From Antedon mediterranea (taxonomy: Eukaryota > Animalia > Echinodermata): DNA of 64,000 nt. The position numbers were made by a program, and so were the translations under genes. Below, one piece after another: positions 9,901-57,111 of this stretch. Numbering within the stretch: position 1 is the stretch's first letter; each line of letters begins with the position of its first letter. The notes below the pieces were generated by a model that was not told the DNA's origin, did no database searches, and saw only the letters and a list, made by a program, of their open reading frames with translations. The DNA lies in contig NC_092674.1 of NCBI RefSeq assembly GCF_964355755.1, positions 5,394,001 through 5,458,000 on the forward strand, in the 5' to 3' direction.

Positions 9901-12900
9901 ATTCGCACTTGCAGGAAAGAGGCTTGTACGTGAAGGGACCACCAATAGTGGGCCAAACTAAGGGACGGCCTAAGCCTGTGTACTCTGAAGGTAAGGGTGT
10001 GTACAAGTGAACACTGAGTGTCTGGCTTAGAAATGATAGTACATTGTAGAGAGAGATGATGAATGGTATTATATAGTGAAACATAACTTCAAATTTTACT
10101 GCAGTAGAACCCCTTTTAGGACATAACAATTCAGAGGACACCTCTAATAAGGGGACACCTCTTCAATAGGGTTCTACTGTACAGTTTAACATATTTATAT
10201 TATTATTATATTATTATTATATATATATATATACCGTATATTTCGGTGTATAAGTCGCACCTGTGTATAAGACGCACCCCCTAACTGAGAGTAAAATATC
10301 GGTATTTTTTATATCGTCGATGTATAAGACGCACTTTATATTTCATCAAAACAATGTTTTTTTAAATTGTTATCAATATTATTGTAACAATATATTTTGT
10401 TATATCTACAACGGAGTCTTTATTTAGGTTTTTTCTTACCTAGGCTCGGTCGCGCCCAGCCTCAACAAGTTCTTTCTAACTTGTTATTCATGAGTTTCGT
10501 ACCCGCAACATCGAGTGCATGACCGTGTGTGTAACATGCACGTGTGTGGGCTTGCCTCGCTCGATCATTTCGAGAGGGCGCACGTTTTCACGGACAATCG
10601 TATTCGATTAGTATCTATGTATCCGAGAAGTGTATACGCTAGGTCCATGCTATAATCAACTGGAGAATATACTAGTCGAATACCGTACACCATGTGGCCG
10701 CCGCCAAGAAGGGCTTGCGCTAGGCTAGGGGTACGGCGGTCGGCGATCGTGCGTATAACTATAAATAAATATAAATCGTAAGCGTTTACAAATGAAATTT
10801 AATCGGAGCGCCAAAAACAGCTCTATAATGAACAAATCTTTTCATCATATTTAGTATAACATCACGCTAAAAATCCTGCCTTGAAAACTAGGCAGAAGCA
10901 GGTTGCCGTTACGTTAGTACACTGTAGCTACAGTAGGCCTAGCCTACTCAGTCAGGCCATGGAGGTATCTTTTTTATACCTCCATGGTCAGGCCTAGGCT
11001 AGGCCTAGCCGCGCCAACAAGGTGACGATTATGTACAATCTGTGTGGTGAGGCATTTATGTTCGGTGTATAAGACGCACCCTTAATTTAGAGGTCAAATT
11101 TGCGTGTCAAAAGTGCGACTTATACACCGAAATATACGGTATATATAGAGGTTGCTTAATTTCTAAATACTATAGTTTTCTAGGTCATATCTCACTGCTT
11201 TTAAATTCGCTTAGAGTATCAAATAGTGTTTTGCCTTGTTTAGAATTATAACAAAAATTGCATTCAGCTTTTGAACTTTTGCATTGCAATGACGAGGTAA
11301 AAATTCTGGCCTTTTCACAGAGCTTTTGCAGTTAAATCGAAAGAAAAGTACTGTCATTCCTACAGGGCTATTTTATTACACAGTACCACATCAATATGCA
11401 GTACAAACTTACTTCACTATTAAAATTGACATAAGATAGACAACAATGTATTGATAGGTCTGCATGGGTTGCTGTTTTTCTTCATACATATAATTAAGCA
11501 TTTGAACCTCTATAGACTTTTCCCACCACCTTGGCTGTTCATGCAAAACACATCCCTGCTATCTATTTCATTTCATGATTGAAACCAGTTATCTCAAATA
11601 ACTGTCTTACTGTACATGAGAAAGACAGAAACAATAAATAAATTGTAAATATTCATGATATAACAACCATGGTTGGTAGTTTGTTGGTGCCACCAATTTT
11701 ATGTTGACAAACATTATTTTTTATGTATTTAAATATAAAGTGGTTTTTATGTTGTTGCATTTTTTCCATGCTATATATGTATATTTTAGGAAATGCTTCA
11801 AAGTGGCTCACAGTTACCATCAAAATGACTTGCACTTAATTAACATTAAATGACTCCCACAGTTAACATTACAATGCACATAGAAGCACATAATATAGCC
11901 TATAAAGGATAAACAATCAACCCATCACTCAATGTCATGAAGAAGAAGCCCATGGGCTTCTTTTTGAGGTTTTACAATATATGAAATGTTGGTCACGTTT
12001 ACAGATCCGCTGTACAGTTCCAGCAGTAGCACCGAATCGATAAGTTCACGTTCCTCGTTGTCAACTCATTCCTCGAATTCTTCTCCGCCCTCCAATAAGA
12101 AGAGCTCCAATTCCTTGAGCACGGGTAAGAGTGACATGTTACGTCTTGTGCCCCTGTCTCGTTACCATCTTCGTAGCCCTTAATAATAGTGAATTCTTTT
12201 GCGCAATTTCTATCGGTGTTGGTGAATTAATACTTTTTTGCCATTTTCAAAAATAATGATTTAGTTTAACAAACAGTTAATAACTTTGAGATATTTGATA
12301 TTAATGCGATCTGTGGTAGAATTATTAACTCATTTTTAGAATTGGAAATCATTTAATGTTATATCTCTGTTTAATACAATCTCTACAATACAAGTCAAAA
12401 GAAACCCATATAATTGCGTTATTAATTAAACCCAAATAAATAAGCACTTTATGCACTATGCAGTTGATTAACATTTTAAAATCTCAATTTTTAAACCTTT
12501 TGGTATTATACAGTAGTTTTATTAATAACACTTTTAAATATAGATCGATATTAGTTATTATTTGTATCAGTCACTTATAGCTTAAGATTGGTACACAGAA
12601 GAGTTTTATTGGCACACATTGTATTAGAGTTGACAATGACAATTACCTACCAAAAATGTTAGGTAAGAATGAAGAAGTTAAGAATGGAATTTGTATCTGT
12701 CAGCAACATTTATTTGAGCTCTGTCTACAATTTCGAACAAAGAAATATGATGTGCCCATATATGGACATGATGATGTCATATCACTCTCATATTTAAGCA
12801 TACCACTACCATTTTTGGGCACATCACACTTTTTTGTCAAACTAGTTTGATAGTGTAGTCGGAGCTTTGGTGAACTCAACAAAAACTCTTCTGTGTACCA

Positions 12901-15900
12901 GTTTAATACATTTTCTATACTGTGAATTTTATCTAAAATATAAATACTTTGTAATCCTTTCTATTACTACGTCTTAACTACATCTATTCTGTTCTTTGAT
13001 TGGCTGCTTGTAAATCGGCAGTTTTCTGGAGGTCAATTCAGATGAGGAAATATCCAAAATATCATACGTATCATGGTAACATAATAGTATCTAGATATAC
13101 ACACGCTTCCACAGTTTATACCACCAGTATTCTTCACATATGTTTTGTCATGTTTTACCGTCAGTGCATGTTTAAAGCTTTGTCTGCACTATAAAACTTT
13201 ATGTTGAAATTTGTATCTATGTCTGCATTATTTTACAACTTTTACTTAAACTCTGGTTATACTATCAAACTTTATGTGACAAAAAAATGTGATGTGCCCA
13301 TATGCTCAAATATGATGTCATCACCACCATATTTGAGCATATCACTACCATACTTGGTCACATCACACTTTTGTCAAACTAGTTTGATAGTTTAGACAGC
13401 TTTAGTTATTAGGTATCCTATCAATCAAGCTTTCCTTAAAGCGTAACTCCGTGTTTGAATTTCTATTGTTTATTATAAAACCCACTTAGATTTTAAACCC
13501 GGAGTTATCCTTTAACTTTGAAATTAAAGATGTATAAAAATGTGATAGGAAAATAGATTTTGTGTTTAGTTTTTTGTGCATGATTTCCTCTTGTTGACTT
13601 GATCCAAAGAAGAGCCCTTTTTAGTGTTATGAAAATGTAGCAGTCTGCTTTTCTTGAAAAACAGTTTTCTGTCTTTTCTCTTTTTATCAAATTTCTGTTT
13701 TTTCCCTATTAATTACTTCAGAATCATATTTTTAGTCTTCTTTCATCACATTTTATTCTTCTGTTTTTTACTTTCTTTTTTGTTATTACTACCTTCCAAG
13801 TATTTTCTTTTATTCTTCTTGCCTTTTTTCATTTTAGTTCTTTATCTTCCTCTTCTTTTCTTTGTTTTTCATTTTACTCTACGGTATTAAGTTGCACAGT
13901 TGAAATATTCTTCATTTTGCGATGATTTAAATTAGTTGTATTAGTCTGTTTACAACAACCATACACATGAACCAAGAATTTGAGTAATAATGTTGGTACT
14001 CATCCAGTATACTATTCTATCCTTTCTACACTTTGGTTTGTATAAAGCATTTACACACATCATGCTGCTTTTCTCTTAAGTTATGTGTTGAAGTATTTTG
14101 TTGTGTAATATTTTCTGTGTATAAAATATATCCTTCAATCCCTGTATGTAGGCAAGCATAAAGACAAAACCAGATATAGGAATGCACAGCTGATCAGAAT
14201 GCTAAAAGGCGAAAATGAGATCAATGAAAAAGGTTAAAATTAAAATAAGTTATTTTTGTATTAACACCAAATGTTTGTTGTTGCCAATTACTCCTTAATT
14301 AATACTTGAAGCTATGCACATTTCGCCCCCCCCCCCTCTCCCTCCTCTCACCTTGTTAATTGTAATTTGTAAATATAGTATAGATTTAATAATGTTCATT
14401 GTACTTTAAAAGTTTGTGTCTGCTTATCTATATACATACTATGTTCTGATTATAAGTGTTTTTGTTCACTTCATCGTGCCATACTTCACCATGCCATAAT
14501 TCACTGTGTGCCATACTTTACTACTGTAGTCATTTGTCCATAATATTAATAATATAATACAATCCACTGTAAATGTAAACATGCTTCATAGCCTGAAGAA
14601 TACTGGTGGTTTGACCTCAATGCTTTTCTTTTTTCCCCTTCACACCTCTTAAATTATTTTCTTTTCTTTATTTTCCTTTTCATTTCTTTAATTTAATTGC
14701 ACATTTTTATTTTGCCCTTTGACCTTTGACATGCTTCTATGTTCCTCAGGCCCTTTCTATGCACAGAATCACGACTACTTGTATCCCGTACGCCCACAAA
14801 TAAGGTATCCACTACCCAAAGGTGAGGCCATCTCCATTTTTTAAATTTTCATTATTTTTATTTGTTAAGTTTTATTTGTTTACACTTTAATTTCATTTCT
14901 TTGTTTTATTTTGATTTGTTTATGTTTGTTTTTAATAGATAACATTTTACTCCCAGTCATAGCTATCCTGGTTCTGTTCACGTCCATCACAAACCATCTG
15001 TATGTGAGCGTCAGTGTGTTCAATTTCTATTACTGGATCGTTTATCAGATAATTCGGTTTGAAAAGCTTTTTCTTATGTCCTTAGGAGGATCACAAGATG
15101 AGCCACCTCGGTCACCTGGAGCGGAGAAACGTTCACCTCGCTCTAAGCGATCATCGTGCGAAATCGTTCGCTTAGATTCAGGTTGATTGAATGTTTAGTC
15201 TTTGCGTTTTTGTACAATTTTCAGTCTTTGCGTTTTTGTACAATTTTCAGTCTTTGCGTTTTTGTACAATTTTCAGTCTTTGCATTTTTGTACAATTTTC
15301 AGTCTTTGCAGTTATTTTATTTTTTATCGTTTTTCTGAACCGAAGCTACAGAATACTGTGTACACTATCAAACTTAATGTGACAAAAAAATGTGATGTGC
15401 CCATATATGGGACACGAGATGTCACTACCATATTTGGGCACATCATACTTTTTTGTCAAACTAGTTTGATAGTGTAGACAGAGCTTTATGATTTTATTTT
15501 TCAATTGTTGTTTTGCTGTAGTTTTGGAAATTCAGTTTTTAACTAAAGAAATCTAAACAAAAAAATTTTTAAAAATACAACCGAGAAATCATTATTTATT
15601 TTTATATTAATGTGAAATTAACAATGTTGGATAAATGCATAGTTTTTAAGCTGTTGCACAGCACTGGTATACAAAATAGGAAAACAAAGTATATAAAACT
15701 TGTATTTATTATTAATGAAACAAATATACTAACCGCAAACAAGTTATTATTTAAAGTATTTATAAGTGAAATTATTTTGTTTTAAATGATGTATCAGGTT
15801 TTTTTTCTCAGTACTTTGTTTTGTTTTTTTTCAATGCTGATAAAATAACTTTAAAAAATAAACAACATAAAACATATTCAAAAGTACAGTGCATGAACTT

Positions 15901-18900
15901 ATGTTTTTTCTGTTATTAATCAAATGTCAGTCCTTTTTTTTTTTCCAATAATGATAACGTTACTGATATAAGAAAAACAACATACACATTATTCAAAAAT
16001 ACATGAACATTTTATGTTATATATATTATGTCTATTTATACATTCAGACAACTTTACCATGTTTTATTGCTTGCTATGTTACATGCAACTTTACATAAAA
16101 GTACCAGATGATAACAGTTTATTGTGCTACTAGTATACACACAAACAAAGGCCGTTAAAATTTGTAGGAAAAGTATGCTTTCAAAGAGCTATTCAGCATT
16201 CAGTATTAAAATACTGTACTTTTGTATTGTCATTGTCATAGTGCCATTGCTTTTAAATTGTTATTAACAATTTGCAATTACTGCCTAAATTTAAAGGAAT
16301 TGTTGTTCAATTTATTTGAATTTAAATGATGTTGATAATAATTGTTGTTCTGTTTTTCTTCTTGCTTCCATAAGTTCCTTCAGAAAAAGTACTTGCCCAA
16401 CGGAAACGTTAGTACCGTGTTTCTTATTCTATCTTTAAGTATCACGTTGTATATTCATGTTGAATTATGTTATGATGAATTAGATAGACCTGTAAATATC
16501 ATTAAAGTTCAAAGGTCAAGTGGTTTGGTACATATAATGGCAACCATTTTTCTTTACTCATTTTCACCATCATGTTATTTTTATATCTGACTCGGGTGTG
16601 AGCCCCGTTTGAACATAAACATGGGATTTTGTGTGATGTGTGTATTAAGCTCTGTCTACAGTATCAAACTTTATCTAATGTGCCCATATATGGACATGAT
16701 GATGTTATATCATTACCATATTTAGGCAAATCATACGTTTTTTTTCTCAAACTAGTTTGACAATGTCTACAGAGTTTAAATTTAAACATTTGCATGAAAT
16801 TTCTCAAATTTAGGAGTGGATTTATATCGGAGTCTATATATTTATTGATCTTTACATATTTTTTTAGAGTTATCTTCTCTGGACGTGATAAATGTTTTAT
16901 ACTGTTTTTTTTAATCTTTTGTTCTTTATCCTGTCATGTGTGTGTCATTTTCATCATATGTTTGTTAATGAACTTTATGACATTTTGTTTGTATATTTTG
17001 TGGACAATTGTCTACATCTCTTCATTTGTATTCTGAATATTTTAGTACTGATTTTGTTTACAGTAATAGAATTTGATTCAATTATAAAATTAAGTCTTTG
17101 AGTTGGATTTTTATTTTCATAATGTTATTTTTTCACTTTTGGAATTAGAAAATAAATATCATATTGGAATTATTTTTTGAAATACAGGTTTATATATACC
17201 TAGCACCTAAAACTAAAACAGTGTAGAGTGCAATCAATTGTTGAAATCTTTTATAGTATATTTGTTAATTTATACAGGGGCTTCCTCACTTGTGAGAAGC
17301 CTCTGTTCCAGTAAATATTAATTTAGTTTGGTTTTGAATTTTAAAGATTTGTTAACGTTCTTGTTTTCTTGAATAGGACGTACGAGTAGCCAACCACCGC
17401 TAGCGACAACGGATGAAACGTAAGTAGATAACTGTATAGAAACAAATGCATGCATGCTTCAATTTTGAAATGAGTACTATAGGTTCCCAGTAGAGGAACA
17501 TAGACACGTTTGTAACAAGCGCAGCATGAAAATAATGAGCTCCACTTTGTAAATATCTTAATTTCTGTAGTTGTAAATTCACATGCGCTTTTTCTGATTG
17601 TTACTAGTTATTCCAAATATGGGCATGGAAGGCATATTGAGAATTAAATTTTTAGATTTTGTCTATTACAATTTAATTTAATAGATTACAAAAATGTCTG
17701 TACACATGGTCATTAAAACATGGTGTTTAAAATTTAAACTACACTATACATGCATCTTAAAACATATATGTTCAAAATGTTTTGCTTAAGTTTAGTGGGT
17801 TTTGCATTGTGTTTATGAGGGCATTTGTATGTTTTCATTTTTTTTTAAATTAAATTTTGGCATGTTTGTTCTTGGCATTAGACTAGTGTTTGCCGTTTGA
17901 TTGTCACTTAAATATATTCCGTTTTATACAGAAAGTGTTTTACCCATTTAAGTGTTGCTGTAAATTTTTAAAAGATCTTATACCAACAAGATAGGCTGAC
18001 ATTATATTGTTTAGACCTTAGATGGTCAGGGGATGCCAAGAATATTTTTTATACCAAAGGGAGTTTTCCCTTGTGTTTTCTAACATTGTGTATTATTAGG
18101 ATAGGTGACTTTGCCATCTTTTTGGTATAAGATCTTTGGTATCATTATTTTGATACACCTTGTATGCCAACAATTTATTTATTTATATTGGCTGTATATG
18201 TTTTCTGTTATGTTTATTTATGTTCTATAGCATTAGTATAGTAAGAATTGATTGGCTAAATAGAAAGTAACTATATAAGCAAAGAACTTATAACACAAGA
18301 ATCTCCTGTTCTTCAATTTGCATTCAAAACACAGTATCGGAAGTACAGGGTTAAAAGGTCAAACTGGGCGACGCCATTTCACAGCATGGAGCAGCGCCCC
18401 CTCCAAACTAGGAAGTCAAGTACTCTACCCCCCTAGAGTATTAGCAGATCCCCTCTATGATTTTGACTTTCTAATTTGATGCGGGCGCCCTACTCCTCAG
18501 TCAATTACTCTACCCCCCTAGAGTATTAGCAGATCCCCTCTATGATTTTGACTTTCTAATTTGATGCGGGCGCCCTACTCCATGGCTCACAATGGCGCCA
18601 CCCATAGCTCTATTCTATCCCACAATGCCTTTCGAAATTGTTACGCGCTTCGGACGAACAGGAGATTCTTGTGTTATAAGTTCTTTGCTATATATATATA
18701 TGGTATAGATCATGGAGAAATAATCTAAATAAAAAATAACCTATTTCGCCATGTATAGATTAATACATTTTGTGTAACATTATTATAGAACATTTAAGTT
18801 TGTATAACTGTAGTAAATTAATTATTTCAATTTCAAACTTTTATTTCAACATAAAACCTTCTTTTTTTTGCTTAATTTATTTAACTAATTATAACACCAC

Positions 18901-21900: not shown

Positions 21901-24900
21901 CTAGCCCAAGTACAAACAGCAGTAGTACATCAAGCAGTAGTACATCAAACAGTGGCTTAAACTCAATCGGAGGAGGGGGAGGCGGAGGTGGCGGCGGAGG
22001 AGGAGGAGGCCCAGGAGGAGGCGGAGGAAATGCTTCAACACCAACTAGTAACACTCCTTCGACTCTGTAAGTAAAATATTATTTTATTTGTTATGTGTAA
22101 ATTTGCATAAATTGTTTATATATATTATATGTAATGTCAAACATACTGTGGAAGATATACTCTGTAAATGCCTGACAAGTAGACATTTTTTGCTAAATAA
22201 ATATATCTGGGACACTATTTTATTATTTATGAAAAGAATTGATTTTAAAATGGAGTTGTAATGATGAATTTAAATACATAATTCATTTATTATAAAACTA
22301 CTGTACTGTTCTTTAATATTCAATGAACATACTCAATATTATAAATGTGTGCACGTTTGAAATGCTACCATTTTTTGTGCTGTGTCAACAATTTTCCATC
22401 AAATATATACTTTTATATAATTTTCTATCCTTTTACTGTGGTTAAATGTGTTACTTTGCACATTTTCGAATTTTTTATTTTTTATTTGTGAAATGTAAAT
22501 GTCCACTCTACGAATGTCCTTCCGCAGAAGTAACGCAGATAGTAGATATCCGCATCCACGAAGTAACACAAACCCAGTAGCACTCCGTGCTAACGCTACC
22601 AATAGAAACAGAAGGTTTGTTGCGGTTAACATGTGTTTGCTTTTTGCCGCTGTTCGTTCTTTTGCATGCATCATCATCTTTGCATTTGTAGCTCATTTTT
22701 CGCATTTGTAGCTTGCCACGTCTGTGTTCGTCGTTGTCTGGTGTTGACGTGTGTTTCATGTTTCATATTGTTAATTTTCAACTGCACAAAAACTACAAAT
22801 TAATGGAGTACATGATAAACAAAGAGGAATGCTTACGGATTCCTTTTAACCTACACCAATTTCTGAATTGGTTTTGGTTTGTGAGGTCATTGTTTAACTC
22901 CATTACTTTGTTGTCTTTGTTGCTGTGTATTAAACTTACAGTCCCTACTACCAGCCAGTGGTGTAACTCAGAGGCCTGAGGCCCCTGGTATATGAACCCT
23001 ACGTTTTTAGGCTTTTTCTACATATTTTGCCTAGTTTTTCCTCTGGAGACTGCTCAGGAGCTCCTGTAAACTCAGGCCCCTGGGCTTAGACAGTTCGCGT
23101 TAAAAGCTGTTATGCCACTGCTATCAGCATGCATGTTTTCATGTTTATGGTTCCTTCTGTAGACTGTGTATTGCATTTCTGTCCCATATCACTGAGTATA
23201 TTTTTAAACTTAATGGCATGTCATATAATTGGGTATCTGTAAGTGTAAGCAGGATTGGGATTTAGCCTTGTAGAAAATGGTTGTACTGTACTGGGTACAG
23301 TTTAGGAAAGTTAACCAGCATGACCCACTAAGGTCACTCATTTTAGCCTTTCTGTCATATTCATATCACATTCATGACATGAAAGCTCACGCACATACTG
23401 TGCTATCCTCTAAAGCTCCACCTACATTATAACAGTTTATGTTTTAAATGGACAGGATGACATGTCACCATATTTGGGTACATCACACTTTTTGTTAAAC
23501 TAGTTTAATAGTATAGACAGAGCTTTAGTTTTTTTGTCAGCCCTTAAAATAGTGTAATAATATAGCTATAAGGTCAATGTCGTACAACAAAATTAAATAT
23601 AGTACATATATAGTACATAATATTGTGTCATTCCAATAACTATAGTATTTTTCCTATGTAATTTGAATTTGACAATGTTTAATGTCTATTTTTGTGCTTG
23701 TTCAATGTTTGTTAACAATTATCTTGGCTGCATGTAATAATAATAATATTCTGAATTTATAATGTGCCTATGTTATGAAACATCTTAAACATTGTACATA
23801 CTGAGAGAAGGGGTAAACAAAGCTAAACTGAGATATGGGGATACTCCCTTTTTGCTAACCAGAGTTCGGTCTAAATTGCACCGGTTGTGTCTCGATTATC
23901 CTGGACTCGGCCGCCCGCCTCCCTACTCTACTAATAATAAAGAAACTCTGTATGCATGAGTGAACATCTCTGCATGCATGAGTGGACAGCTCTGTATGCA
24001 TGAGTGAACAGATAGTTTTAGGATATCTGCAACAAGCTTTGTAGAATTGCAGGTTGATTGTAAATAAGTGAGCATAACTAATAGGTGTTACTAATAATGA
24101 GCTAATAATAATTTTATATGTTGTTATTTTTCTTTTCTAAAATAATTTTAAATGAATTTTTAGTAACAATAATTATGGAAATTGGCTGTACAGTCAACCA
24201 TGGAGGTGATATACCTCCATGAGTCAACTCTATAAAAACATTTTGAAAACTGGAAACTCGCAAAATAAAATTCAAGCAAACAGCAATGTTGTTTGAGTTG
24301 ACTGTACTTAATGATTGTATATTAATTTATAACCTAATTTGTCATTTTACTTGTAATTGTTTGTTTAACTTTTTATCTTGTTTGTTTAACTTTTTATCTT
24401 GTTTTAATAATTACACTAACCATAGAGATACTATAATATCTCTATGCACTAACCAATGATGCTTACTTTCTTTACTAACTAAATTTTTTACCCAATTTTT
24501 ATTGCAATACAAATACAAATTTCATACAGAATTTGTTATATATCTTGCAGTACACAATTTTAGGTACAACACATAGAACATCTCCTGTGTGTGTGTTAAA
24601 AAAAAACCATTTTTCTTTTTTAAATACATTTTGTTTTGATTACAAAAAAAAAAAATAAATAAAAAGAAAATTGTTGAAATTTTATTTTGAAGTGACATCT
24701 ACCGTATGCTTTTTACAATACTGCATAATAAATGTATATGTTATTTTTTTTTAAAGATAACCAAAATTTCAGATTTTTTAGCATTATCTGGTTCTGAACT
24801 GATGTAAATATTATGTAGATGAATGATTTTTATATACTATTAAAAACATGCCTTATATAGGCTGAAAATTTGATGCTTTTTAATACACTAAGATGATTAC

Positions 24901-35390: not shown

Positions 35391-35439
35391 CTTGTATCAT
35401 GGAGGTAAAAAATATTATTTTTTACCTCCATGCTTGTAT
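35391..35439. mobile_element. putative P-superfamily transposon excision footprint
   Basis: CTTGTAT + CATGGAGGTAAAAAATA-T-TATTTTTTACCTCCATG (17+1+17 perfect hairpin) + CTTGTAT. Confidence 0.7.
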
Positions 35440-36263: not shown

Positions 36264-36438
36264 AGCGTGGTTCCCACTAGAGTCTAGAGAGCGACGTATT
36301 GACGCAAAGTTATCACAAGTGTGAGAACCGACGACGCAACAGTGCTGCAGAAATCGCAGGTTTGATTTCACGCAGGCGGGGGAAAACACGATTATTGTAG
36401 GTTGCGTTACGTTGCGTCGCTAGTGTGGGAACCAAGCT
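36264..36438. mobile_element. MITE family B, inverted relative to 34270-34463
   Basis: Interior is the reverse complement of the 34270 copy. Confidence 0.75.
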
Positions 36439-37750: not shown

Positions 37751-38697
37751 GTTAGTTGAATAATGTTGTAATGTATATTTGGACCAAAATGTGCATGAGT
37801 ACATGTATTTTGGAAGTTTTCTTGAATTTTCTCTGAACACATGGTAGTTGTCTCGATAATTTTTTTTCGCGGTTCTCCGACACTGTTTTTGTAGATGGTG
37901 GCGATACACAGTGACTATATCATGACATATTCCTCGTTAAAACAACAATATGAGTATGTTTAATATGTCATATAAAATCAATGTAAATTTTTAAAATAAT
38001 GTATGGTTATTGTAATACAAAACTATAGTTAAATGCTTCGTTTCCAACAATAACAATCGCCGATCTATTGACGTAGTGCGACGTGTATGCCGCCGATGCC
38101 TAGGCCCCCAACAACAATGCTTTACGACACACACACGCAATGCATGCGTGTTTATGGAAATCGATCGATGTCTACGATTTCTTTTATTGTATAAAGTTTT
38201 AATACATATTTTATTTCATGTTATACTTTTAAAATAATTAACAAATAAGTGAATGTACCTAATAAATACAGTATGTTGTTATGTCATTGATTTATAAATA
38301 ATTCAACGTGCATATAGTTGGTCGCTAGCTAGGCTACCGAATTGTTTTCTTGGACACGTAATACAATCGGGTAAATGCTGCCCACTTACGGCGGTTCTAT
38401 TTTCAGGACGATTGGACCCGTTTATGGTTCATTTTTGTTTTCAACACTATTATTAGTAGTATTAGTACTTTATTTTATTTTCTGATTATTTTTTATTCTT
38501 TCATTAATTGTTTTAAGTAAGTTATGGATTGATTTTTTGTCATACTAACTATGGTTGAAAACACATAGGCCTATTTATTTTATTTTTGAATTTAGTATAT
38601 AAACTTTTTTATATAATATTATTAACTTATATAAAAAAAAAGTTATCTACCATATTTAAACTGGTGTGTATATCCCGGGTGGGTTGTATTACTTTTA

Positions 38698-38856
38698 AGC
38701 CGATTTTCCACTAGGCGAATTTGTTCGCGCGAATCGAAGGGGTCAGCTAAAACGCATGCGTAGAGAAGGATTTGGAAGATGTAAACATGAATACACATGC
38801 GTACAAGCTGGCACGTTCGATTCGCGCGAAAAAATTCGCCTAGTGGAAAATCGGCT
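38698..38856. mobile_element. MITE (Harbinger-like)
   Basis: ~41-bp near-perfect TIR AGCCGATTTTCCACTAGGCGAATTT.., TTA TSD. Confidence 0.85.
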
Positions 38857-39735
38857 TTATTCATTAATTTTTTCTCTTTTTATTTGTGGTTAATACAATA
38901 TCATGTTTTGATTTAATCGTACATGATAATGAAAATAATTGTCATTTTCTTTTCTTTTTTATTAATATTTTTTGTTTTCTCATATCAGTCGGAATTTTCT
39001 GTACAAAATTGTTTTATTAAAACTTTCCTAATACTAATGATTGTAATGTTATATACTACTATACAATATCATTTCAACCATTGTTTTTTAACATAGAGGA
39101 AATCTGCACTCAAGGGTTATTGATTATTAGTAAAAACATAGAAACAATTGTACAGTGTTAAGATTACAGTATATTCTAGTTTTGTATATGAACAATGTTT
39201 AATGCATATTGTCTGTTTATTATTGTTTTACCATTCACCTATACACCCCCTCCCCCTTCTGACAATCATTTTTGTTTTAATTCTTAAATTAACAGTATAT
39301 GTAGTATAATCCCATACATAATTTAGGCCAATATCAGCCCACAAGAGTGGTGAATTCCATTGTTACTGCAATTTGTGTGTAATTCATCCATATTAAAAAC
39401 ATGTAGCACCCTCTAAAATGTGCCCTCTATTGTTTGGCCACACTCCCGCAATTTAATTTTTTCAACTTTGTCTTTATTTGGCAACAAATTTTTATTAACA
39501 ATTTTTGTAAATGTAGAATCACTTCTTCCTAGGTTTTCCTTCCTAAACATAATTGTTCACAGTTGGATGCACACCCTGTTGTTTTAGTTTTACACACAAC
39601 AAACATTTAAATATTTAACAACCAACACATATATTTACTGTAATCAAATATAACATAAATTTATAAAATGTCAAATTTATAAACACACAAAAACTCAATG
39701 CTTGGTAATAAACTGGAAATTAATTAATTAATTAA

Positions 39736-43200: not shown

Positions 43201-46200
43201 ATTCAGCTTCAAATCTAACACGGTATGAAACTTCTTCGAGAACAAGAACATATATAAGTAGACCAAGAAAGAAACATTGCTCTTGTATTAATAGAAGATA
43301 CCATATGCATGATCACTTGAAAGAGAATAAATTAAAAGAATCGGCAGTTCCACTAGTTGTTTATCAAATCCCTGCAAGTAATGGTTCAAACCAGCTAGTT
43401 GCTGTTCCTGCACCACAAGTCAGAAAAGAACCTGTAACTGCCTCGGAGAAGTTGGCTCACGCAAAGAAACTTGGAAATCCAAGCAATGTATCTTCGCCCC
43501 TCGTTCTTTCGAAAGATAAGATGGGTTTTATGCTTACTCCAGTTCTTGCAGTCCCTCCACAAAATCCAGTTGTAGAACCACCGAAACCTAAACCTAAATC
43601 AAAAAAGAGAAAAGGTGAACCACAGAGAGTATCTCGTAAAAGAGTAAATAAGACAAAGCAGTTTCATTTCACAAATTCACTTTTAGCACCAATGCAAAAG
43701 GGGGTAGGAATTTCAAATATTTCAGCCCAGCCTATCCAGTCTTCCTCGGGTGTTATTCCTACTACATTTATTTCACAAACTAGAGGTAATGTGTTACCTT
43801 TCAGTACAACATATACAAATGTCACAGCAACACTTGTATCATCATGTATAACACCAACCGTAAGTAGTGCCCCTCTTCAACCTTTAAACACTGTTTCACT
43901 TCTACGAAAAGTGCTACCAAAACAACAGCCGACTGTTTCAGGATTTGCAGAAAGACTTAAAGAAACCTCATCATCTACTGATTTAAACGTAATCAAGAAA
44001 GCTGTTTCACTTCCACAAAAATTGCTGCCAAAACAACAGAAGCCGACTGGTTCAGGATTTGCAGAAAGACCCAAAGAAACCTCATCATCAACTGGTTTAA
44101 ACACAATCAAGAAAACTGTTTCACTTCCACAAAAAGTGCTGCCAATGCAACAGAACCCGACTGTTTCAGGATTTACAGAAAGACCCATAGTAACCTCATC
44201 TGACTTGACTGATTTAAAAATAATCAGGAAAACTGTTCGCGAAAAATTAGCTGCTATCAGGAATCCACATTCAGCCGCTAAAATGAACTTCATTGAAGCA
44301 GTAGCTTCATCAGTAAAAAAGAAAAATGCAAGTAACACTCAACAAAAGATTTTGATTCCTATTGATTTGGTGCCAAGGCATTTAATACCAAAAGATCCAC
44401 TCTGTATACAATTAAGGAATCCTATTGCTGTTGAGGGTAACACAAGTGCAACAACTACAACAGAAAGTACATATACAATTGCACAGGTAAGCTATTTTTT
44501 TTTAAATGCTGCTGTTAAATATGCCTTTATATGGTAGTACTGTATCTCATTTCAAATGTGACATCTCACTACAAAGTAAGTCAAAATGTTCTTATAGTAC
44601 CAGCCATTTTGTGGTGAAAGCTCACATACAGTATTGCACATGTTGAGTCTGATTTTTATCTATTATATTAAAGCTTGATTTTTTATTTTGTCAGTCCTAT
44701 ACTCCGCAGTTATCAGTTGCAGAAAAATCAACTATTGTATTAAAAGAAACACCAAATCTTCTTCATTCTACTGGCGAGCAAGACAAAACATTGGTAGTTA
44801 ATTCAAGTAAAACTGAACAGAAGAATCTTGCTACACCACAACTTAATCCAACATTTATTGATTTGACTGATGATTCTGCTGATAGAAACGGTTCTAAAAA
44901 TTTAGATGAAAATTGTTTGGCAATTGGTGTAATGCCATCACAATTACCCATTGAAACAATTGATGTGAAAATCAAACAATCTTCTAGTGATGGAAGTTTG
45001 GGTGTTGACCCAGCATCAAATGTATCTCAAAAATCCAACAAGTCTCCAAGTAAAGCCCAGCGTTGTATAGATAAAGTTGTACGTTGTAGATCCAGGTTTC
45101 CTAAAAGACCCTGGCAAATGACATCTTTGATGGTGATGAATAAGACATTGAAAGACAAAGGTCATCCAGTTCTAATTGATATCAATTCAAATGAAAATTG
45201 GCAGAAGGACAAATCAGTTATTGTGAGTTCTATTTTGCAAAGTTCTTTACAAGAGACCATATCAACAAAAGTTGCTGGTTTTACTGTATTCCTTTTCTAT
45301 AGTGATAAGACAAGAACAGTTCACCTTAAAGGAGGTAATGCTATGAGTGGAAAACACAATGTTAAAGTTATTACTGTGTGGGTTTTTGTACCAAAAGTTC
45401 CTATCAAACTTTCTAAAAGATCTCCTAAAAGAACAAATCTTGATAAAATGGAAGCATGTAAAGATTCAGATTTTAGAAACGATGATGATGACTGCAAGGT
45501 TATAGGCATCATTAAGAATGATGCCACCAATACTAAAGATAGTCCTAATATTGTCAACTGTGCTATGGCTGAGATACAAGATCTTGTAAGTGATAGTGAA
45601 AACCAAGACAAAGTGGCTGAGAGGTCTGCATTCAGTGATATTTATAAAAATTCTGGAAATATACCAGATTCAGAAGTGGTTGAACAAGTAAATTATTCTA
45701 CAGTTAGTGATATTGAAGAGATCAACAGTGGTAACAATTCTGATAGAACTGAATTGAAAGAATGTTCTCCTCAAAGGAAAAGAAAGAAGATTGAATCTCC
45801 AAAGAAACCACATGAAAAACAGAGAAATATAGAAAATTCAAATCAAGATACGAGTTACCAGAACAATTCAAATATCTTTGAAAAAATGGAGTTAGAGATG
45901 TTAAAGCAACCGCAAATGAACCGAAAAGATAAGACAGAAAGTATACCTATTGATTCCAAAATTTGTAGCAGTGATTGTGTCCAGTCACTGATATCTAATA
46001 ATGGTGTCAGTGAAGAGTTAGAAGTTTCCAAGAATGATTTCTCTGGAATATTAAAAATGAATCTTCAAAGTTCTGTTTCTGAAGCAGGGATGCATGCTAT
46101 CAAAGATACCCAACCAATAGAAACAACACCAAGTGAGAGGTCGAAGGTTGAAGATGGTATTCAAGAGTTTGATATCAAAATTGCTGATGATGTTGATTTG

Positions 46201-49019
46201 CTAGATATTGGTAATTCTGAAGCTTCTGAGAATGTCATAATAAATAGCCATAGATTTAATAGCAGTAATCGTTCTAAACCTACTACTGAATTAAAAGATC
46301 AGGAAGTCCCCCAACTTACATTCGATCCAGAAATACCTTGTAAATCAGAAATGGATGGCGTCAATGATAATTGCATAGAAGATTCTTTAAAACCTGACAT
46401 AGCTTGTAAAAAGAACATAATTAATAAACTCAAAGAAACAACCAGTCATTTCAATGCAAATTATTGTGATACAGAGAGTAATTTTAAGAATAACATGGAA
46501 AATACTAATGATGAGCTAAAACAGGAGGATGTTCAGTACAATACTTCTGGTGAGTTGCATGTTGAAGAAACAAAGAAAACCAAAGGTACACCTCATGCAT
46601 CAGAAGATTTGCTAGCTCAGAGCATTAAAGAAACATATGAACAATGGCACAAAATTATAAATGGAGAACAAAATTTATCTACCTCTGTGGAGAATGAACC
46701 CAAAGATGTAGTACCTAAACAAGATCCTAAAGAAAAAGAATCCATCAAAGATGTTAAAGGAACAACCTTTACTGAATTAGAAAATAAAGAATGCTTAGTT
46801 GATGAACCAGTTCTTGATGATTTGTTGAAACATGATGACATTCAAATAGAGGAAGAATCAATATTCGAAAGTAGTAACAATACTGACATTGTCAAAGTTG
46901 ATTCTACTTTCATTGATTTGACTGGAATTTCAAACAATGGAAAATCAACGGATTTAGAGCATGAAGTTACTGATAACTATGCTGATCTAGATTGTAATCA
47001 GTTTATAGATGTAGAAGGAACTAATATTGATACTGAAGATTTGACTTGTGAAATTCCAGTTGTTGAAAGTGAACCAATTGAGAAGTTAAATACAGTTATT
47101 GATATTGATGGAACCTGTGTACCACTTGAATTTAACATGGAAGACAGTTTTGAAAATGATCAAAATCGAAGAAAGAGTGGAAGAGCACCAATTAAGTCTT
47201 GGAAGTTAGCAGAATCACAAACAGAATTAGAGCATACTCCAAAAAAGAAAACCAAGAAAAAGAAGAAAAGCAAGGATAAAGATGGTAACGTTATCCAGAA
47301 ATCCCCTGAAAAACTTGTCATAAAGATGGTGTATGGTGAAGTTCCATATATCCACAGTCCACCAGTAGCATCAACATCAAAACGCAAACGTAAGGATCTT
47401 GGTGTTGAAAGAGGAACACTTGACCAACAGTTGCAGAAATTGGTCGCAGAACGTTCAATAACTGAGGATGTGTCAAGCAGCTCAGTACGACCCAAACAAT
47501 CCAAAATTAAAGAGCAGAAATCAATTGTAGATGTTTGGCGATTAACTGATGAAGAGGTCGGAGTAGATGTGGCACCATTTAATGAAAGTGATGACAATCA
47601 TGACGATGAAATAATTGATGTTGAAGGGAATTATGAGATTAAAAAACCTGAATTTGAATCAGATTATAACATTGTAGAAGAACGTAAGAAACAAAAGGAA
47701 AGAGATTTAGCGTCGTGGAAGCCTCCATCAAAGAATATTATTTGTGACCTTGCTTCTGGAACCCTACACCCACCATCTGGGAAAAGCAAAAAAGGCAGGA
47801 AAAGCGAAGTCAAGGGTGCTTTCCATGACATGAGTCAGTTTCTTGGTGAACCACAGTTTATGGAGTCTGTCGTGGCATGTGTGGATGATGAAAATCTACA
47901 GCCAGGAAGGGTAAGTTAGTCTTCATTATATAACACCTAAATAAATGTCTTTGATTTGATGATTGTGAGTCACATGGCATGCGATAGTATGTATTACAGG
48001 TTCTAAATGATAGATTCTAGGTGAAAATAACCTGCTTCACTCCCTGTTTATCATCTTACAAAAGAGTATCATCTCCTCATCATAAGAACAATTTGTTGCT
48101 CTGAAAAATATTTTATTTTTAAATAATAACAGTTTTCAAACTGAACAGTGTCTAGTAGCCAATAATATTTTTATTTTTTTATAATTTCCACAGCTTGTTC
48201 ACAACATCAAAGAACGGCAAAGACGGCACTTTTTAGCAACGCAATTTAAGACACTGAAAGAAGTACTACCTGCGACAGCAAGTTCAAAACAAGCCGTCTT
48301 GGGTGAGGTATGTCATCATGCCACAATGTACTCTTTCTATCCTTGTTTCTTAATCTCTTCAGTTTGAGCATTTATTTGTTCTACAAATATTTGATATTTC
48401 GATCTTCCATACACATGGGGTATCAAAATGGCTGAAATTGGGTGGGCAATGTTCTTAATTAATTAAAAATGTGCTTGTGAAAGTCAGCATATAAGATAAT
48501 TAATGTTTTTTCTTTGAAGTTATATCTTGTTTTTGTATTACTTATACAAAATGTTTTCCTGAATTGAAATAAGTACTAATTGAGATGTTTCGTTTTTTAG
48601 GCATTGACTGAAATTATTCAACTAAGAAATGACGCTTCCATATTAATTCGGAAAAAGTCCAAACTGAATAAAAAGCACAGACGTCTTAAAAAGAAATTTA
48701 GCGTTCTTCTTGGTAAGTGACAGAAATTATTTTTTTTAAATGTTATTAAGTATTGTAACACACCTGAGGATATCTCTGCCATTTAAATTGTTAAATTCAC
48801 AACACAGACTGTTTGGTATTAGTGATGATATTCGGTACGGTGCATAATGCACGGTGCATAATATTCGGTGATAATAGTTCTAATGCACGGCTCCACCTTA
48901 AAATAGAGCAATCAATCTTTTAACTCATGAATCTTATTTTCCCAGGATTGCCTGCTGCAGAAGAAAAGGGTGCAACTGTTGAGCCATCAACTTTGGAAGA
49001 AGACGTTACAGACGTTTGA
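40287..49019 (+). CDS. MGA: MGA-like (MAX gene-associated) protein, ~2571 aa, Cys-rich MGA domain + bHLH-ZIP, no T-box
   Basis: Exons 40287-44486, 44695-47910, 48194-48307, 48601-48712, 48946-49019 splice in frame (7716 nt). PFCGKAYCKLGCLCGSI..HCRKIDCMFGCTC at 42993-43115 resembles the MGA conserved domain (DUF4801); LVHNIKERQRRHFLATQFKTLKEVL..SKQAVLGEALTEIIQL plus zipper is a MYC/MAX-network bHLH-ZIP. Confidence 0.85.
43890..44231 (+). repeat. coding tandem repeat, ~38 aa (114 bp) x3 in MGA
   Basis: Units start at 43890, 44001, 44115: TVSLPQKVLPKQQxPTVSGFAERPKETSSSTxLNxIKK. Confidence 0.9.
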
Positions 49020-50930
49020 TGCAAGAAAAAGTTTTCATACTAGAAAGATTCATCTCCAAGACTACAGAGAACATATTCAGTGATTTATTTTGAAGATATA
49101 ATACTGTAATTGTTTATCAACATGTTAATTATATACAGTACACTGAAAGGCTGTACTCTATATGTAGTAATATGAGACACCCTTGATTTTCTAAGAGTCT
49201 GGTTTGGGTTCCTTGACTGTATACTTACCATGGCCGTTTAAAACATCTATATGTTTAGTGATATGCAAATGTGAATATATTTGCTATAAATAGAAAACTG
49301 ATCGCTATATAGACAATTGTGTCATGCACTATATTTTTTGTTTGTTTTTTTTTTATTATTAAAATTCGACTCTGAAAATAAGAGTATAAAAATCAGTGTA
49401 TTGAAAATAATGTATTCATATTTGTAGATGATAAAATGCTATAAATTTCAATAAGGTTGTATTGGTTATATTTGTGAGTGAAAAATTATTTAAATACAGG
49501 GTACAGTTAGATTTGTTTTTGCAGTAAACCCTTCCAGAATCAGACAGTGTGGAAACCCTCCTCAAAGACCAGACTTGTCAATTTCAAATTCTTAAGGTCC
49601 ATTCACACCAGGCACTTATCCAAGTGATATTTTATGAAAAATCATTTACATCTTCTCTGCCATATCAAAATGGTTTTTATATCTCTCATGGCTGTTTTTT
49701 TTCATATAGACTTGGTTGGAAGGTTAAACAAAATATAGAAAGTGTGAATGTGTCTTTAATTAACTAAATTCTAAACTATCCTGTTACTGTGTTACCATCC
49801 AGATTTTCTTTTAAGCTCTGTCTACACTATCAAACTAGTTTGACAAAAAAAGTGTAATGTGCCCAAATATGGTAGTGATATGCCCAAATTTGGTAGTAAT
49901 ATGACATCATCATGTCCATATATGAGCACATCACAATTTTGTCACATAAATCTTATATTTTAGAAAGCATTTATTTCTCATCGCATGGTTAATGTGTGTT
50001 GGAAATAAAGTAGTTGATGCAACTCAGGGATTGAGTTCATTATTATTATGTCGACAGACATGTATAGAAATTAAATTTAACACAGAATTTTGATTTTTAG
50101 TTCTTGATTATTTTAGAATAATTAATTTTGTAATTTAACGCAGGTCTATGAAAATGTAATTTAAAGGTTTTTTAAAAGTATTTATTTACTACTTTGGTTA
50201 ATGTTTTCAGAAAATGTAATTCCATATTACACCTTATAAAAACACCAGGAAAATGATTATTTTAGTTACAGTATACATATATATATATACTTTAAATTTA
50301 ATTTTACTTGGGTCAAGAAGTCGATAACTTGATTTGATCATGATGTAAACCAATAGGCCTGCGGTGGTATTGTAATTATGTGAATATGTATTTTGTAAAT
50401 ATGTAGATGGGGAAATTAAATATTTTGGAAAAAATTGAGATACAAATAGAATTGTTTGTTTACTGTAGCCATAATATTTATGTGGTACACTAGGGAGCAA
50501 CTCAACCTATTTTTTGAACTGTTTTTTGTGATCGTCAACTCACTGCCATCTTAGTTGCATCCAAATGGGATTTAATCATGTATTCTATCAAATGATTCAC
50601 TAATTCATTAAAGATGGCATTTTTACTTGAAAAACATTTATTTATTTTATATACGTCCGCACGACGTGTGGTGGAAGAGCCCAATGACAATGAAAATGAT
50701 TCTTTATTTCTTTATCGACCCTTTTTCAGGGTATATGTAAAAGCGTGTATGACAGAAGGCAGTAACGGCGTTCCATATCCCCGCCCTCTAGAGGAAAAAA
50801 ATGTCGTCGCGTCTTCCTCCTTCGTCGTCGGGGGGGTCTTCGCGACATCATCATCAGCTGTCCCCTCGCAAAAAGATCAAGTAGGAGGTAGCCTAGCCTA
50901 AGTAAAGACAGGCTAGAAAATAAGAAAGAA

Positions 50931-53900: not shown

Positions 53901-56394
53901 AGATCCCAGTAGTCCGGTAAGTACAAGACCACAAAAGCTGGCTAAAGGCGCGTTTCCACACGTTCAATCAAATGACGTCATGATTAGTAAGAGCAATAAT
54001 ATTGTTACAATTCAACGATTTTATTGTTTTTATTGATCATGACATCATTTGATTTGATTTAAAAAAATATTATTTTTATCAAATACAGCAACTTATCCTA
54101 GCATGATTATCCTATAGTTCTAGAACGAAAACTAATTTCTTTTGTTTTATCCAAGAAATATGTATGTTTATCTATTTACCGTTTATCGTTATCACCCTAG
54201 TGTAAATGGGCATTAACCTATTCCTTGTTAAATCAGTTGTTACCTCTGCTCTCTTCTGTTTTTATCCGAACGATCTATGACCCAAAATCCCGCTGGATTT
54301 TTCGATTTTGAAGAGAAAGAGTCAAAGGTCAAAGTAACAAACCACAAAAAATGTCTTTATAATTGTAGTGGTTCATCCTTGTGAAGCAACAATTTTTGTT
54401 ATGATGATTCCATATCCTTCAGTAATCGATTATCAATCATCCTTGTATTTCTTATCCAGTGTATCATGGCAAATTCTATAATAAAGTGTAACATGTGGTG
54501 CCTGTATTGGTAAGTGTTAAAATAGACTGAGGGTCTATGATACAAGCATCACATGTGATACAAGCATCACATGTGATACAAGCATCACATGTGATACAAG
54601 CATCACATGTGATACAAGCATCACATGTGATACAAGCATCACATGTGATACATATGAGACACTGTATTACATAATTTGGCTATGATACTGGATGTATTAT
54701 AGATAGACAGACAGCAAACAATAAAATTGTATATTTATATTTCTTCCCATTAGGTATCTGCAGAGGATGCAAAATTACTAGACAAAGTTATTTTCTCAGG
54801 ACCACCACTTATTGAGCAAATTTTATGGCCAAAGCATTGTTTGCAAGAATCTCATGGTGCAGCATTCCACAAGAATCTTAAGGTAGGCATCTGTTATATT
54901 GCATAGGCAAAATGTCTGTAGGCCTGGCATAGCGTTATCTTGCCTCTACAAAGAAAATGACCATAGAATTGCAAGTAATAACTAATTGATGATTCCTAAA
55001 GCTCTGTCTACAAAAATGTGCCCATGTATGGACATGATGATGTCATATCACTACTATATTTGGACACATCACTACCATATTTGGACACATCACACTTTTT
55101 TTTGTCAAACTCGTTTGATAGTGAACTTTAGACAGAGCTTAAGCCTTACAATATTTATTCCATACAATACTGTATGATGAATTTGCAATACATTTTGTAC
55201 ATCGACAGACTATATTATAGTGCCCTCTATATTTTGTTTTAACCCACAATTAAAAATAAATATCCAAGCGACCTTTTTTAAAACATTTTTTTTTTCAACA
55301 TTACAATTTTTTTATGAAGAATAACTTTAAAGATGTATTGTCCCCCAAAAACATGAAAAATAAAGATTAATATAATCAGACTTTAAATATGTAATTTTTT
55401 AGTTTTAATAAAGTTAATCATTTCTGTAGAAAAAAAACTGGAAAAAAATAATGTTTTCACTTATAAAATTACAAAATAAATGGTTAAATTCAACCAAAAA
55501 CACATTGGCTGGCAGTCAATTTGACTATTTTTTGCTTTAAATTACATTTTTTAGGTAAATACTTTTTTTTCCGATTCAATTTTTGGTCAAAGTGGATAAT
55601 TATTTAGCGACATTAAAATGGCATATTCAACAGAAAAATTGTTAAGTATTAATTGGGGACAATATATCTTTAAATATTCTAATCAATATTTTTATTTGTT
55701 TAGATCACAGATCTTAAAGATACATTCTACATAAAAAAGGGCAGTCAATGTCATATAGACTCTTACTCTGCATTTTGCGATAATGCTCATGTGACCAAAT
55801 CTGATCTCGCAGCCCAGCTCATAAAAAGAAATGTTACTACAGTATACGTGTGCGGACTGGCGTTTGACTTCTGTGTAGGATATACCGCGCTTGATGCCAT
55901 TGATATTGGATTAACGACTATCGTTATAGAGGATGCCACCAAGGCAGTGAATTCAACATCTGGAGAAATGATGAGAGAGAAACTTGTTAGGAATAGATGT
56001 ATTTTTATTACAAGAAAAGAGGTTAGAATTATTGTTGGCTTTAGATAAGTTTATTTTGTAGACTTGTGCAGTGGATTTTGGTGGTAACAATCTTGCTTAC
56101 AAATTCCAGAGATCTGGGTTCAAATCCAACAATTAAGTTCGAGAAGGATACTTAGTGAACTTGCAGTCATTTGTAAAGTGTTTTCTCAATCTACACGGTA
56201 GTACACTGCACATCTGATTAATTACCTATCTGATCCAAAGATACTCTCTAAACATTAACAAGTATAAATATATTTTTATTGGTTTTTTTTTTCTGCAGCT
56301 TTCAAGTCTGCTATCAAGAAGCTACATTCCATTGTATGAAGGTATGCATGCTGCCAAACGACTTTCACAAATTTCATCATGTACAAAGCATTAA
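50931..56394 (+). CDS. Naam: nicotinamidase with N-terminal EF-hand pair (~352 aa)
   Basis: Exons 50931-51028, 51680-51818, 52597-52653, 52966-53072, 53802-53916, 54754-54882, 55704-56021, 56299-56394 splice in frame (1059 nt). EF loops DIDCDGALNLSE and DKDKDGKLNELE; isochorismatase-family motifs ALLVVDVQNDF, DWHP..HISF, WPKHC, KKG..DSYSAF, CGLAFDFCV. Confidence 0.92.
51060..51540. repeat. CTAG/GGCCTA-rich low-complexity tract in Naam intron 1
   Basis: Dense TAGGCCTA, GCTAG and CCTAGG words without a fixed period. Confidence 0.7.
51855..52196. mobile_element. Kolobok-like MITE, related to 55331-55669
   Basis: Colinear interior similarity (GTTTTAATAAAGTTAATCA.., TTGGCTGGCAG.., TTTTGGTCAAAG..); ends ACATCT|TTAA. 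Confidence 0.65.
52361..52510. mobile_element. MITE family A copy
   Basis: Complete TIRs with TTA TSD on both sides. Confidence 0.85.
53283..53736. repeat. 29-bp minisatellite, ~15.7 copies
   Basis: TGGCTGCTATGAGTCTGTAGAGGGCCTAC, no spacers. Confidence 0.95.
54538..54652. repeat. 18-bp tandem repeat x6 with palindrome ATCACATGTGAT
   Basis: GATACAAGCATCACATGT. Confidence 0.95.
55331..55669. mobile_element. Kolobok-like MITE
   Basis: TTAA|AGATGTATTGTCCCC..GGGGACAATATATCT|TTAA; related copies at 51855-52196 and a fragment at ~37009-37200. Confidence 0.75.
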
Positions 56395-57085: not shown

Positions 57086-57111
57086 GTCAAAACATGGAGC
57101 CATGGTCAAAA
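57086..57111. mobile_element. putative P-superfamily excision footprint (short)
   Basis: GTCAAAA + CATGGAGCCATG (12 bp) + GTCAAAA. Confidence 0.5.

What the first reader, a model, noticed from the sequence alone, without database searches (positions are those of the whole stretch)
10951..57111. Family of tiny hairpins with exact 7-bp target duplications: probable P-element-superfamily excision scars
Seen: six unrelated sites share the layout [7-bp repeat]-CATRGAG..YATG-[same 7-bp repeat]: 10951-10993 (GTCAGGC, 29 bp), 18704-18760 (TATAGAT, 43 bp), 24192-24228 (AGTCAAC, 23 bp), 24414-24453 (CACTAAC, 26 bp), 35391-35439 (CTTGTAT, 35 bp), 57086-57111 (GTCAAAA, 12 bp). Termini are shared, while middles and lengths differ. 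Established: P-superfamily elements have CANRG termini and 7-8-bp TSDs (7 bp for Galileo), and Drosophila P transposase cuts with 17-nt staggers so repaired donor sites keep short pieces of both TIRs between the TSDs. Inference: these are fixed excision footprints of at least two or three P-like families, about one per 10 kb here. That would be a genome-wide record of cut-and-paste events too short for repeat annotation.
Basis: partly seen in the sequence, partly recalled or inferred. Interest (0 to 1): 0.85.

Follow-up and report, generated by a model that had tools for sequence, protein, structure and literature searches.

The report
Feather-star scars of P-type transposons
Six 12-43-base hairpins, each between two identical 7-base repeats, are real insertions-like features of a feather-star genome that recur in other animal DNA, and they are likely the scars left where relatives of the fruit-fly P element cut themselves out, which would give a natural record of where such elements landed and how deep they cut, although the parent element was not found.

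Summary
All six sites are exactly as described: exact 7-bp direct repeats around CATRGAG...YATG inserts, 0 hits in 200 shuffles. The window is from a feather star (Antedon). One insert has tens of look-alikes elsewhere in the same individual's DNA, some with indels. The same CATGGAGGTA ends occur in other animal DNA: 27 hits in one assembly (23 exact 7-bp TSDs, lengths 25-39, none at 40-46, consensus GTnnnAC like Galileo's GTANTAC), one with an empty paralogous site, and six hits elsewhere with 8-bp TSDs. Junctions look like Drosophila P donor-site repair products (unequal arms, microhomology, filler copied from the end). Best reading: end-joined donor sites of 7-bp-TSD P-superfamily elements (about 0.72). 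The scan noted similar scars before in at least six other genomes.

The parts
10951..10993 (.). Site 1: TSD GTCAGGC + 29-bp insert (10958-10986); arms 11 + 1 extra letter + 17 of the CATGGAGGTATAAAAAA end
   Evidence: right arm matches locus L038's end for 17 letters
18704..18760 (.). Site 2: TSD TATAGAT + 43-bp insert (18711-18753); 12-bp arms with one mismatch (CATGG[A/C]GAAATA) and a 19-letter A-rich middle; longer than the 38-39 ceiling of the other family, so it needs filler or a longer kept end
24192..24228 (.). Site 3: TSD AGTCAAC + 23-bp insert (24199-24221); arms 9 + 2 + 12; one look-alike locus elsewhere in the genome
24414..24453 (.). Site 4: TSD CACTAAC + 26-bp insert (24421-24446), CATAGAGATA family; tens of look-alikes elsewhere with unrelated flanks, some with indels
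35391..35439 (.). Site 5: TSD CTTGTAT + 35-bp insert (35398-35432); 17-bp perfect arms plus one letter, or 17 + 18 letters of the end seen in JAAUXV01 contigs
57086..57111 (.). Site 6: TSD GTCAAAA + 12-bp insert (57093-57104); arms 7 + 5; weakest site
121..138 (.).
   Evidence: 0.04 per shuffled window, 0 of 300 with a target score of 3 or more, but the real window holds 47 cases of 7+4+7 repeats, so chance is not excluded
57503..57529 (-). Lone end CATGGAGGTAAACAAATAAA (57522 inward) followed by GTTTTAT; no partner end in the window; possible remnant of a longer element or of a one-sided deletion
   Evidence: 0.07 expected for the 10-mer

Best explanation
These hairpins are likely repaired donor sites of cut-and-paste transposons, probably of the 7-bp-TSD branch of the P superfamily (1360/Galileo type), and not functional elements. 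Inferred steps: (1) a longer element inserts at a GTnnnAC-like site and duplicates 7 bp; (2) its transposase later cuts each end with a long stagger, as the fly enzyme does at 17 nt, leaving the outer tip of each terminal repeat on the chromosome as a 3' overhang; (3) the two identical, non-complementary tips are trimmed and joined bluntly, on a short self-complementary word, or with filler copied from the tip; (4) the result is TSD + partial left end + partial right end + TSD. Shown: anatomy, target consensus, length spectrum, insertion status of one relative. Inferred: excision, the enzyme, the stagger. At least two end families (CATGGAGGTA, CATAGAGATA), probably three (CATGG[A/C]GAAATA), contribute here. 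For the CATGGAGGTAGAAAATAAA family of the second animal the kept end would be 19-21 nt.
For: TSD: exact 7 bp at 6 of 6 window sites; 23 exact and 3 one-mismatch of 27 JAAUXV01 hits; exact 8 bp at 6 and exact 7 bp at 2 of the other 54 metagenome hits; 0 of 15 and 0 of 9 viral hairpins have a TSD. 1360 and Galileo make 7-bp, P 8-bp TSDs (PMC3698922). Target: symmetrised JAAUXV01 TSDs give G 34/52, T 46/52, A 46/52, C 34/52 at positions 1, 2, 6, 7 (0 of 50,000 resamples); window TSDs score 13 of 24, p = 0.0016; Galileo consensus is GTANTAC (PMC4168063). Lengths 25-39, 22 distinct sequences of 27, none at 40-46 although the pattern allowed 46. The two perfect-palindrome classes (30, 38 bp) are lengths predicted by self-complementary words in the end. 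7 of 27 need added letters; L087 and L070 carry an internal copy of the end's start, and a site-4 variant has AGAGATC put in behind ...AGAGAT, like the templated insertions and repeated microhomology classes in PMC2895639 Table 1. L080's site is empty, with one copy of the 7-mer, in two paralogous repeat ends in L030.
Against: No longer element with these ends and no P transposase was found. 20 of 27 JAAUXV01 inserts can be made from the 38-mer by one internal deletion with at most one substitution. About nine tenths of the laid depth at site 4 shows no indel (laying favours same-length copies). Site 2 (43 bp) exceeds both 34 and 38. No empty or full allele was seen at any window site (one individual, collapsed contigs). 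Arms of 19 nt do not match the fly's 17. Repbase also lists hAT families with 7-bp TSDs.
Confidence: 0.72

Rival explanations
1. They are mobile micro-MITEs: a 26- or 38-bp paired-end palindrome is itself cut and pasted by a transposase, and the shorter forms arise afterwards by hairpin deletions.
For: Five identical 38-mers with unrelated flanks and 20 of 27 inserts derivable from it by one deletion; a dominant 26-bp class at site 4; paired-TIR minielements of up to 80 bp exist (MADE1, PMC9062482 passage); a PiggyBac-type machine excises 26-bp pieces in Paramecium (PMC6143343 passages).
Against: 22 of 27 differ from the 38-mer in the middle while 23 of 27 TSDs are exact, so central change far outruns ordinary decay; 7 of 27 have added letters; 12- and 23-bp forms lie below 26; fly P needs binding sites internal to its 31-bp repeats (PMC7776569 sections 6-7), which these lack, and long staggered cuts from both ends would meet inside so short an element (inference); repeated identical products are normal in fly junctions (14 isolates in one class).
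Confidence: 0.12
2. They are extreme internal-deletion derivatives of longer P-like elements made without the long stagger, by abortive gap repair from the sister chromatid or by collapse of long palindromic ends.
For: Fly donor sites are mostly repaired by incomplete synthesis followed by end joining (PMC2895639 passage); site 2 is longer than the ceiling; arms exceed 17 nt.
Against: Such events should give a long tail of lengths; 0 of 27 lie at 40-46 while 10 of 27 lie at 37-39. Lengths above 46 were not searched in that assembly.
Confidence: 0.09
3. They are excision scars, but of a non-P superfamily (for example 7-bp-TSD hAT or an unclassified group) with its own staggered cut.
For: No transposase links the ends to P; 7-bp-TSD hAT families exist.
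Against: CAT-starting ends as in fly P and zebrafish Pdre2, both 7- and 8-bp TSDs for one end type, and the Galileo-like target; hAT enzymes are recalled (not checked here) to leave hairpins on the flank and no transposon letters.
Confidence: 0.06
4. They are chance or slippage products, or protein-binding palindromes kept by selection.
For: AT-rich, repeat-rich DNA; the 12-bp site does not fold beyond shuffles.
Against: 0 of 200 shuffles; each site has a different exact repeat; empty paralogue; same ends in unrelated animals.
Confidence: 0.01

Closest known systems
Drosophila melanogaster P-element donor-site repair junctions (PMC2895639 Tables 1-3, passages read; mechanism PMC7776569 sections 6-7 read)
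   Same: TSD + truncated left end + truncated right end + TSD; ends start CATG; unequal arms; microhomology, blunt and templated-filler classes; recurrent identical products; minimal CATG-type joins.
   Different: 7-bp instead of 8-bp TSD; different end sequences; kept end at least 19 nt in the related family instead of 17; found as standing genomic sequence rather than recovered in crosses; parent not identified.
Galileo and 1360/Hoppel (P superfamily; PMC4168063 and PMC3698922, passages read)
   Same: 7-bp TSD, occasionally 8; palindromic GTnnnAC target (GTANTAC for Galileo).
   Different: Described from Drosophila as long elements; the word 'footprint' does not occur in either paper's main text; their cut stagger was not given in what I read; no sequence link to these ends was tested.
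Zebrafish Pdre2 / THAP9 (PMC10983969, parts 1-2 of 7 read)
   Same: Non-insect P-like element with CAT-starting ends.
   Different: 8-bp TSD, 13-bp TIR of another sequence, long internally deleted copies.
MADE1 paired-TIR minielements of Hsmar1 (PMC9062482, one passage)
   Same: Tiny non-coding palindrome made of two transposon ends.
   Different: Mariner-derived, up to 80 bp; the inserts here are 12-43 bp, of variable length, with 7-bp TSDs.

Membership tests
P superfamily (P, 1360, Galileo) | 7- or 8-bp TSD | tested here: met
   6 of 6 exact 7 bp; 7 and 8 bp in relatives; literature
P superfamily (P, 1360, Galileo) | Palindromic GTnnnAC-type target of the 7-bp members | tested here: met
   (window p = 0.0016; JAAUXV01 0 of 50,000)
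P superfamily (P, 1360, Galileo) | Termini aligning with a classified P element over positions 1-11 (Repbase rule) | tested here: inconclusive
   Only CAT(G) is shared with the two P ends seen in papers; no library of eukaryotic TE ends is on hand
P superfamily (P, 1360, Galileo) | THAP/P-type DDE transposase in an autonomous parent with the same ends | not testable with these tools
   No genome held; none in 100 window ORFs or 148 locus ORFs; collection scans negative
P-element excision footprint (Drosophila type) | Both TSD copies kept, with independently truncated ends, microhomology or templated filler | tested here: met
   against PMC2895639 Table 1
P-element excision footprint (Drosophila type) | Kept end of at most 17 nt | tested here: not met
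   19-nt arms in asymmetric junctions L020, L040, L065, L073, L075 and in five 38-mers; window sites 1 and 5 fit 17-18 and do not decide
P-element excision footprint (Drosophila type) | The same locus held a full element before (full, scar and empty alleles) | tested here: inconclusive
   One empty paralogue in the second animal; no full allele; window runs are one individual
MITE | [quoted passage not shown] | tested here: inconclusive
   22 distinct sequences of 27 and 13 lengths argue against; modal 38- and 26-bp classes argue for

The most novel reading that the evidence does not exclude
Marine invertebrate genomes carry thousands of unannotated scars of several P-superfamily families, and each family's scar spectrum reads out its own cut depth; the CATGGAGGTA family, shared by a crinoid and other animals with 7- or 8-bp TSDs, would cut 19-21 nt inside the end instead of the fly's 17, showing that the long stagger is general to the superfamily but tunable.
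Probability: 0.45. Interest if true: 0.7.

Novelty: new variant of a known kind. Interest (0 to 1): 0.5.

Why it matters
The long staggered cut is known biochemically from the fly enzyme; whether 7-bp-TSD relatives outside insects do the same did not complete in the papers I read. If these are scars, a regex over any assembly yields thousands of natural repair junctions, the target preference and the cut depth of transposases nobody has purified, and a count of past cut-and-paste events that repeat annotation misses. They are also clean 20-50-bp presence/absence markers. No effect on host genes is indicated: none of the six lies in a Pfam-supported coding stretch. Five literature searches listed no genome-scale description of such natural scars, but the library lacks most subscription papers and Repbase Reports, and I saw only listings for those searches.

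Tried and rejected
No whole genome held, so no genome-wide regex or histogram for Antedon. Parent search: the 18-19-letter end in viral (2 hits) and prokaryote genomes (69 hits) gave 0 of 71 with a partner end and TSD within 8 kb; metagenome loci could not be extended; two scans of viral contigs with a recalled transposase motif gave 0. Pfam on 100 of 138 window ORFs of 65 aa or more (those overlapping the gypsy and MGA frames left out; the three long ones scanned) and on all 148 ORFs of 39 animal-like loci: no THAP or P transposase family listed. Viral hairpins with the same words have no TSD (0 of 15, 0 of 9) and were rejected. The apparent 200-bp element 18385-18584 with CATGGAG at both ends has no TSD and lies inside a high-copy MITE: rejected. 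The 42-bp satellite at 60841-61119 mimics a 7-bp TSD only through its period: rejected. Empty-site search: 1 of 46 reconstructed sites found an empty paralogue, 0 of 7 window sites. The arm count used a 19-letter reference, so it cannot show a cap by itself; the cap rests on total length. Summed contig depth is not a copy number, so 'tens of loci' is rough.
Full report
Observation. The six sites are present at the stated coordinates with exact 7-bp direct repeats and inserts of 29, 43, 23, 26, 35 and 12 bp. A scan blind to the end sequence found five 7-bp repeats around perfect inverted repeats, four of them these sites. Five sites fold as hairpins beyond shuffles; the 12-bp one does not. I add a candidate minimal site at 121-138 and a lone end at 57503-57522 without partner.

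Setting. The window is animal DNA of 34% GC. Its two long frames at 40287-47913 match a 2571-aa MGA-domain protein labelled Antedon mediterranea at 99%. Sites 1-4 lie between a RhoGAP-coding stretch (9080-9334) and an SH3-coding stretch (32349-32570) on the plus strand, so likely in introns of one gene; site 5 lies between that gene and the MGA-like gene, site 6 about 1 kb beyond an isochorismatase-domain stretch. No THAP or P-transposase family was listed for 100 window ORFs.

Same genome. No assembly was held. Four public runs of one individual hold the region. Laid on 24020-24620, their contigs pile up exactly on the site-4 insert: summed depth 16,222 in the bin 24419-24439 against about 270 for single-copy contigs in X2, 3,025 against about 40 in X1, with loose unrelated flanks on both sides; 32-44 records were laid per run. 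Depth is not a copy number, but this means tens of other loci, and it is an undercount because a piece needs about 31 matching letters. Six indel rows appear, among them -5, +2, +4 and +7 letters; the +7 repeats the end's own AGAGAT. About nine tenths of the depth has no indel, partly by ascertainment. One other locus resembles site 3. No empty or full allele of a window site was seen; the data cannot show one reliably.

Other animals. A metagenome scan for CATGGAGGTA-N1-25-TACCTCCATG gave 81 loci. Twenty-seven come from one assembly, JAAUXV01, whose contigs carry short animal-type coding pieces (CUB, LDLa, ANF receptor). Of these, 23 have an exact 7-bp TSD, 3 one mismatch, 1 none. Of the other 54, six have an exact 8-bp TSD, two an exact 7-bp TSD, four a 7-bp repeat with one mismatch, and 42 none. 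Viral hairpins with the same words have no TSD (0 of 15; 0 of 9 for the CATAGAGATA pattern). The JAAUXV01 flanks also hold TSD-flanked hairpins with CATAGA(C/T)C and CAGAGA ends. For L080, the site exists empty, with one copy of the 7-mer, twice in L030: that insert and its duplication are an insertion product.

Target. Symmetrised JAAUXV01 TSDs give GTnnnAC (0 of 50,000 background resamples reach the score); the six window TSDs fit it at p = 0.0016. Galileo's published consensus is GTANTAC with 7-bp, rarely 8-bp, TSDs (PMC4168063, passages); 1360 and Galileo make 7-bp and P 8-bp TSDs (PMC3698922, passages). This is the strongest link to the P superfamily; it is indirect.

Lengths and junctions. 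JAAUXV01 inserts run from 25 to 39 bp, 10 of 27 at 37-39, none at 40-46 although allowed (1.4e-4 under a flat spectrum). All are pieces of one end, CATGGAGGTAGAAAATAAA, taken from each side to different depths. Five are an identical 38-bp palindrome with unrelated flanks; this equals 19+19 joined bluntly, or 20+20 or 21+21 joined on AT or AATT, and the other perfect palindrome (30 bp) is also a length predicted by a self-complementary word. Arms of 19 letters also occur in asymmetric junctions (L020, L040, L065, L073, L075), so if these are scars the kept end is at least 19. Seven of 27 need added letters. In the fly, P transposase cuts 17 bp inside each end (PMC7776569, sections 6-7) and donor sites are joined into TSD-left tip-right tip-TSD products with microhomology, blunt and templated-filler classes, some recovered many times (PMC2895639, Tables 1-3 in passages). 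The match in kind is close. Window site 5 is 17+18 letters of the JAAUXV01-type end with nothing left over, site 1 is 11+1+17. Site 4's 6-letter centre is one substitution from a self-complementary word, which would explain a dominant 26-bp product (inference). Site 2 is too long for either ceiling and has its own end sequence.

Against. Twenty of the 27 inserts can equally be written as one deletion from the 38-mer, so a tiny mobile palindrome that later decays is not excluded; paired-end minielements up to 80 bp are known (PMC9062482, one passage) and 26-bp pieces can be excised in Paramecium (PMC6143343, passages). I weigh it lower because TSDs are nearly intact while most middles differ, filler is added, forms of 12-23 bp exist, and internal binding sites are missing. 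No parent was found: collection scans and Pfam scans were negative, but none of those collections holds animal genomes.

Known or new. It works like a Drosophila P donor-site scar; membership of the P superfamily meets the TSD and target tests, is open for termini and transposase, and the 17-nt limit is not met in the related family. Searches for natural, genome-scale P scars (listings only) showed no such paper; Repbase Reports and most subscription papers are outside the library, and no supplements were read. Earlier notes of this scan report similar scars in at least six other genomes and a P-type element elsewhere in this genome; they are unchecked notes, gave me two paper leads that I then read, and are not counted as support. 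What this case adds is several families in one window, a 27-member spectrum with a 38-39 ceiling, a target consensus test and an empty site.

Verdict. Real feature; likely P-type excision scars (0.72); new variant of a known kind; interest 0.5.

Noticed in passing
window 25590-30509: Ty3/gypsy-type LTR retrotransposon with identical 179-bp LTRs and one unbroken 1377-aa RT/RNase H/integrase frame, inserted inside a copy of the window's commonest short repeat; likely recent.
   Followed up: partly
window 54519-54652: An 18-bp minisatellite whose unit is ATACAAG + CATCACATGTG starts directly after a decayed hairpin ending ...GGGTCTATG, an end type (CATAGACCC) that forms TSD-flanked hairpins in L030/L055; a scar may have seeded the satellite.
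   Followed up: partly
window 18272-18689: High-copy MITE-like element (depth roughly a thousand times single copy) with an internal 85-bp duplication; site 2 sits 15 bp beyond its right end.
   Followed up: no
window 2716-2900, 8593-8770, 12730-12870, 35838-35960, 49805-49960, 55016-55130 and others: A dispersed 150-250-bp repeat with internal 21-bp units, at least 15 copies in the window and thousands in the genome by depth; unclassified here.
   Followed up: no
window 38697-38857; 34320-34400 with 36316-36396: A 160-bp hairpin element with 66-bp arms, and two inverted copies of another short repeat that bracket site 5.
   Followed up: no
L030, L055, L080, L090, L093: Further 20-28-bp hairpins with exact 7-bp TSDs and other ends (CATAGA(C/T)C, CACAGACC, CAGAGA) in the second animal: more families of the same kind.
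   Followed up: no
L037, L045, L071, L074, L077, L096: The CATGGAGGTAT end with exact 8-bp TSDs and lengths 22-32 in three other metagenome assemblies.
   Followed up: partly
window 40287-47913: MGA-domain gene with two unusually long exons (about 4.2 and 3.2 kb).
   Followed up: no
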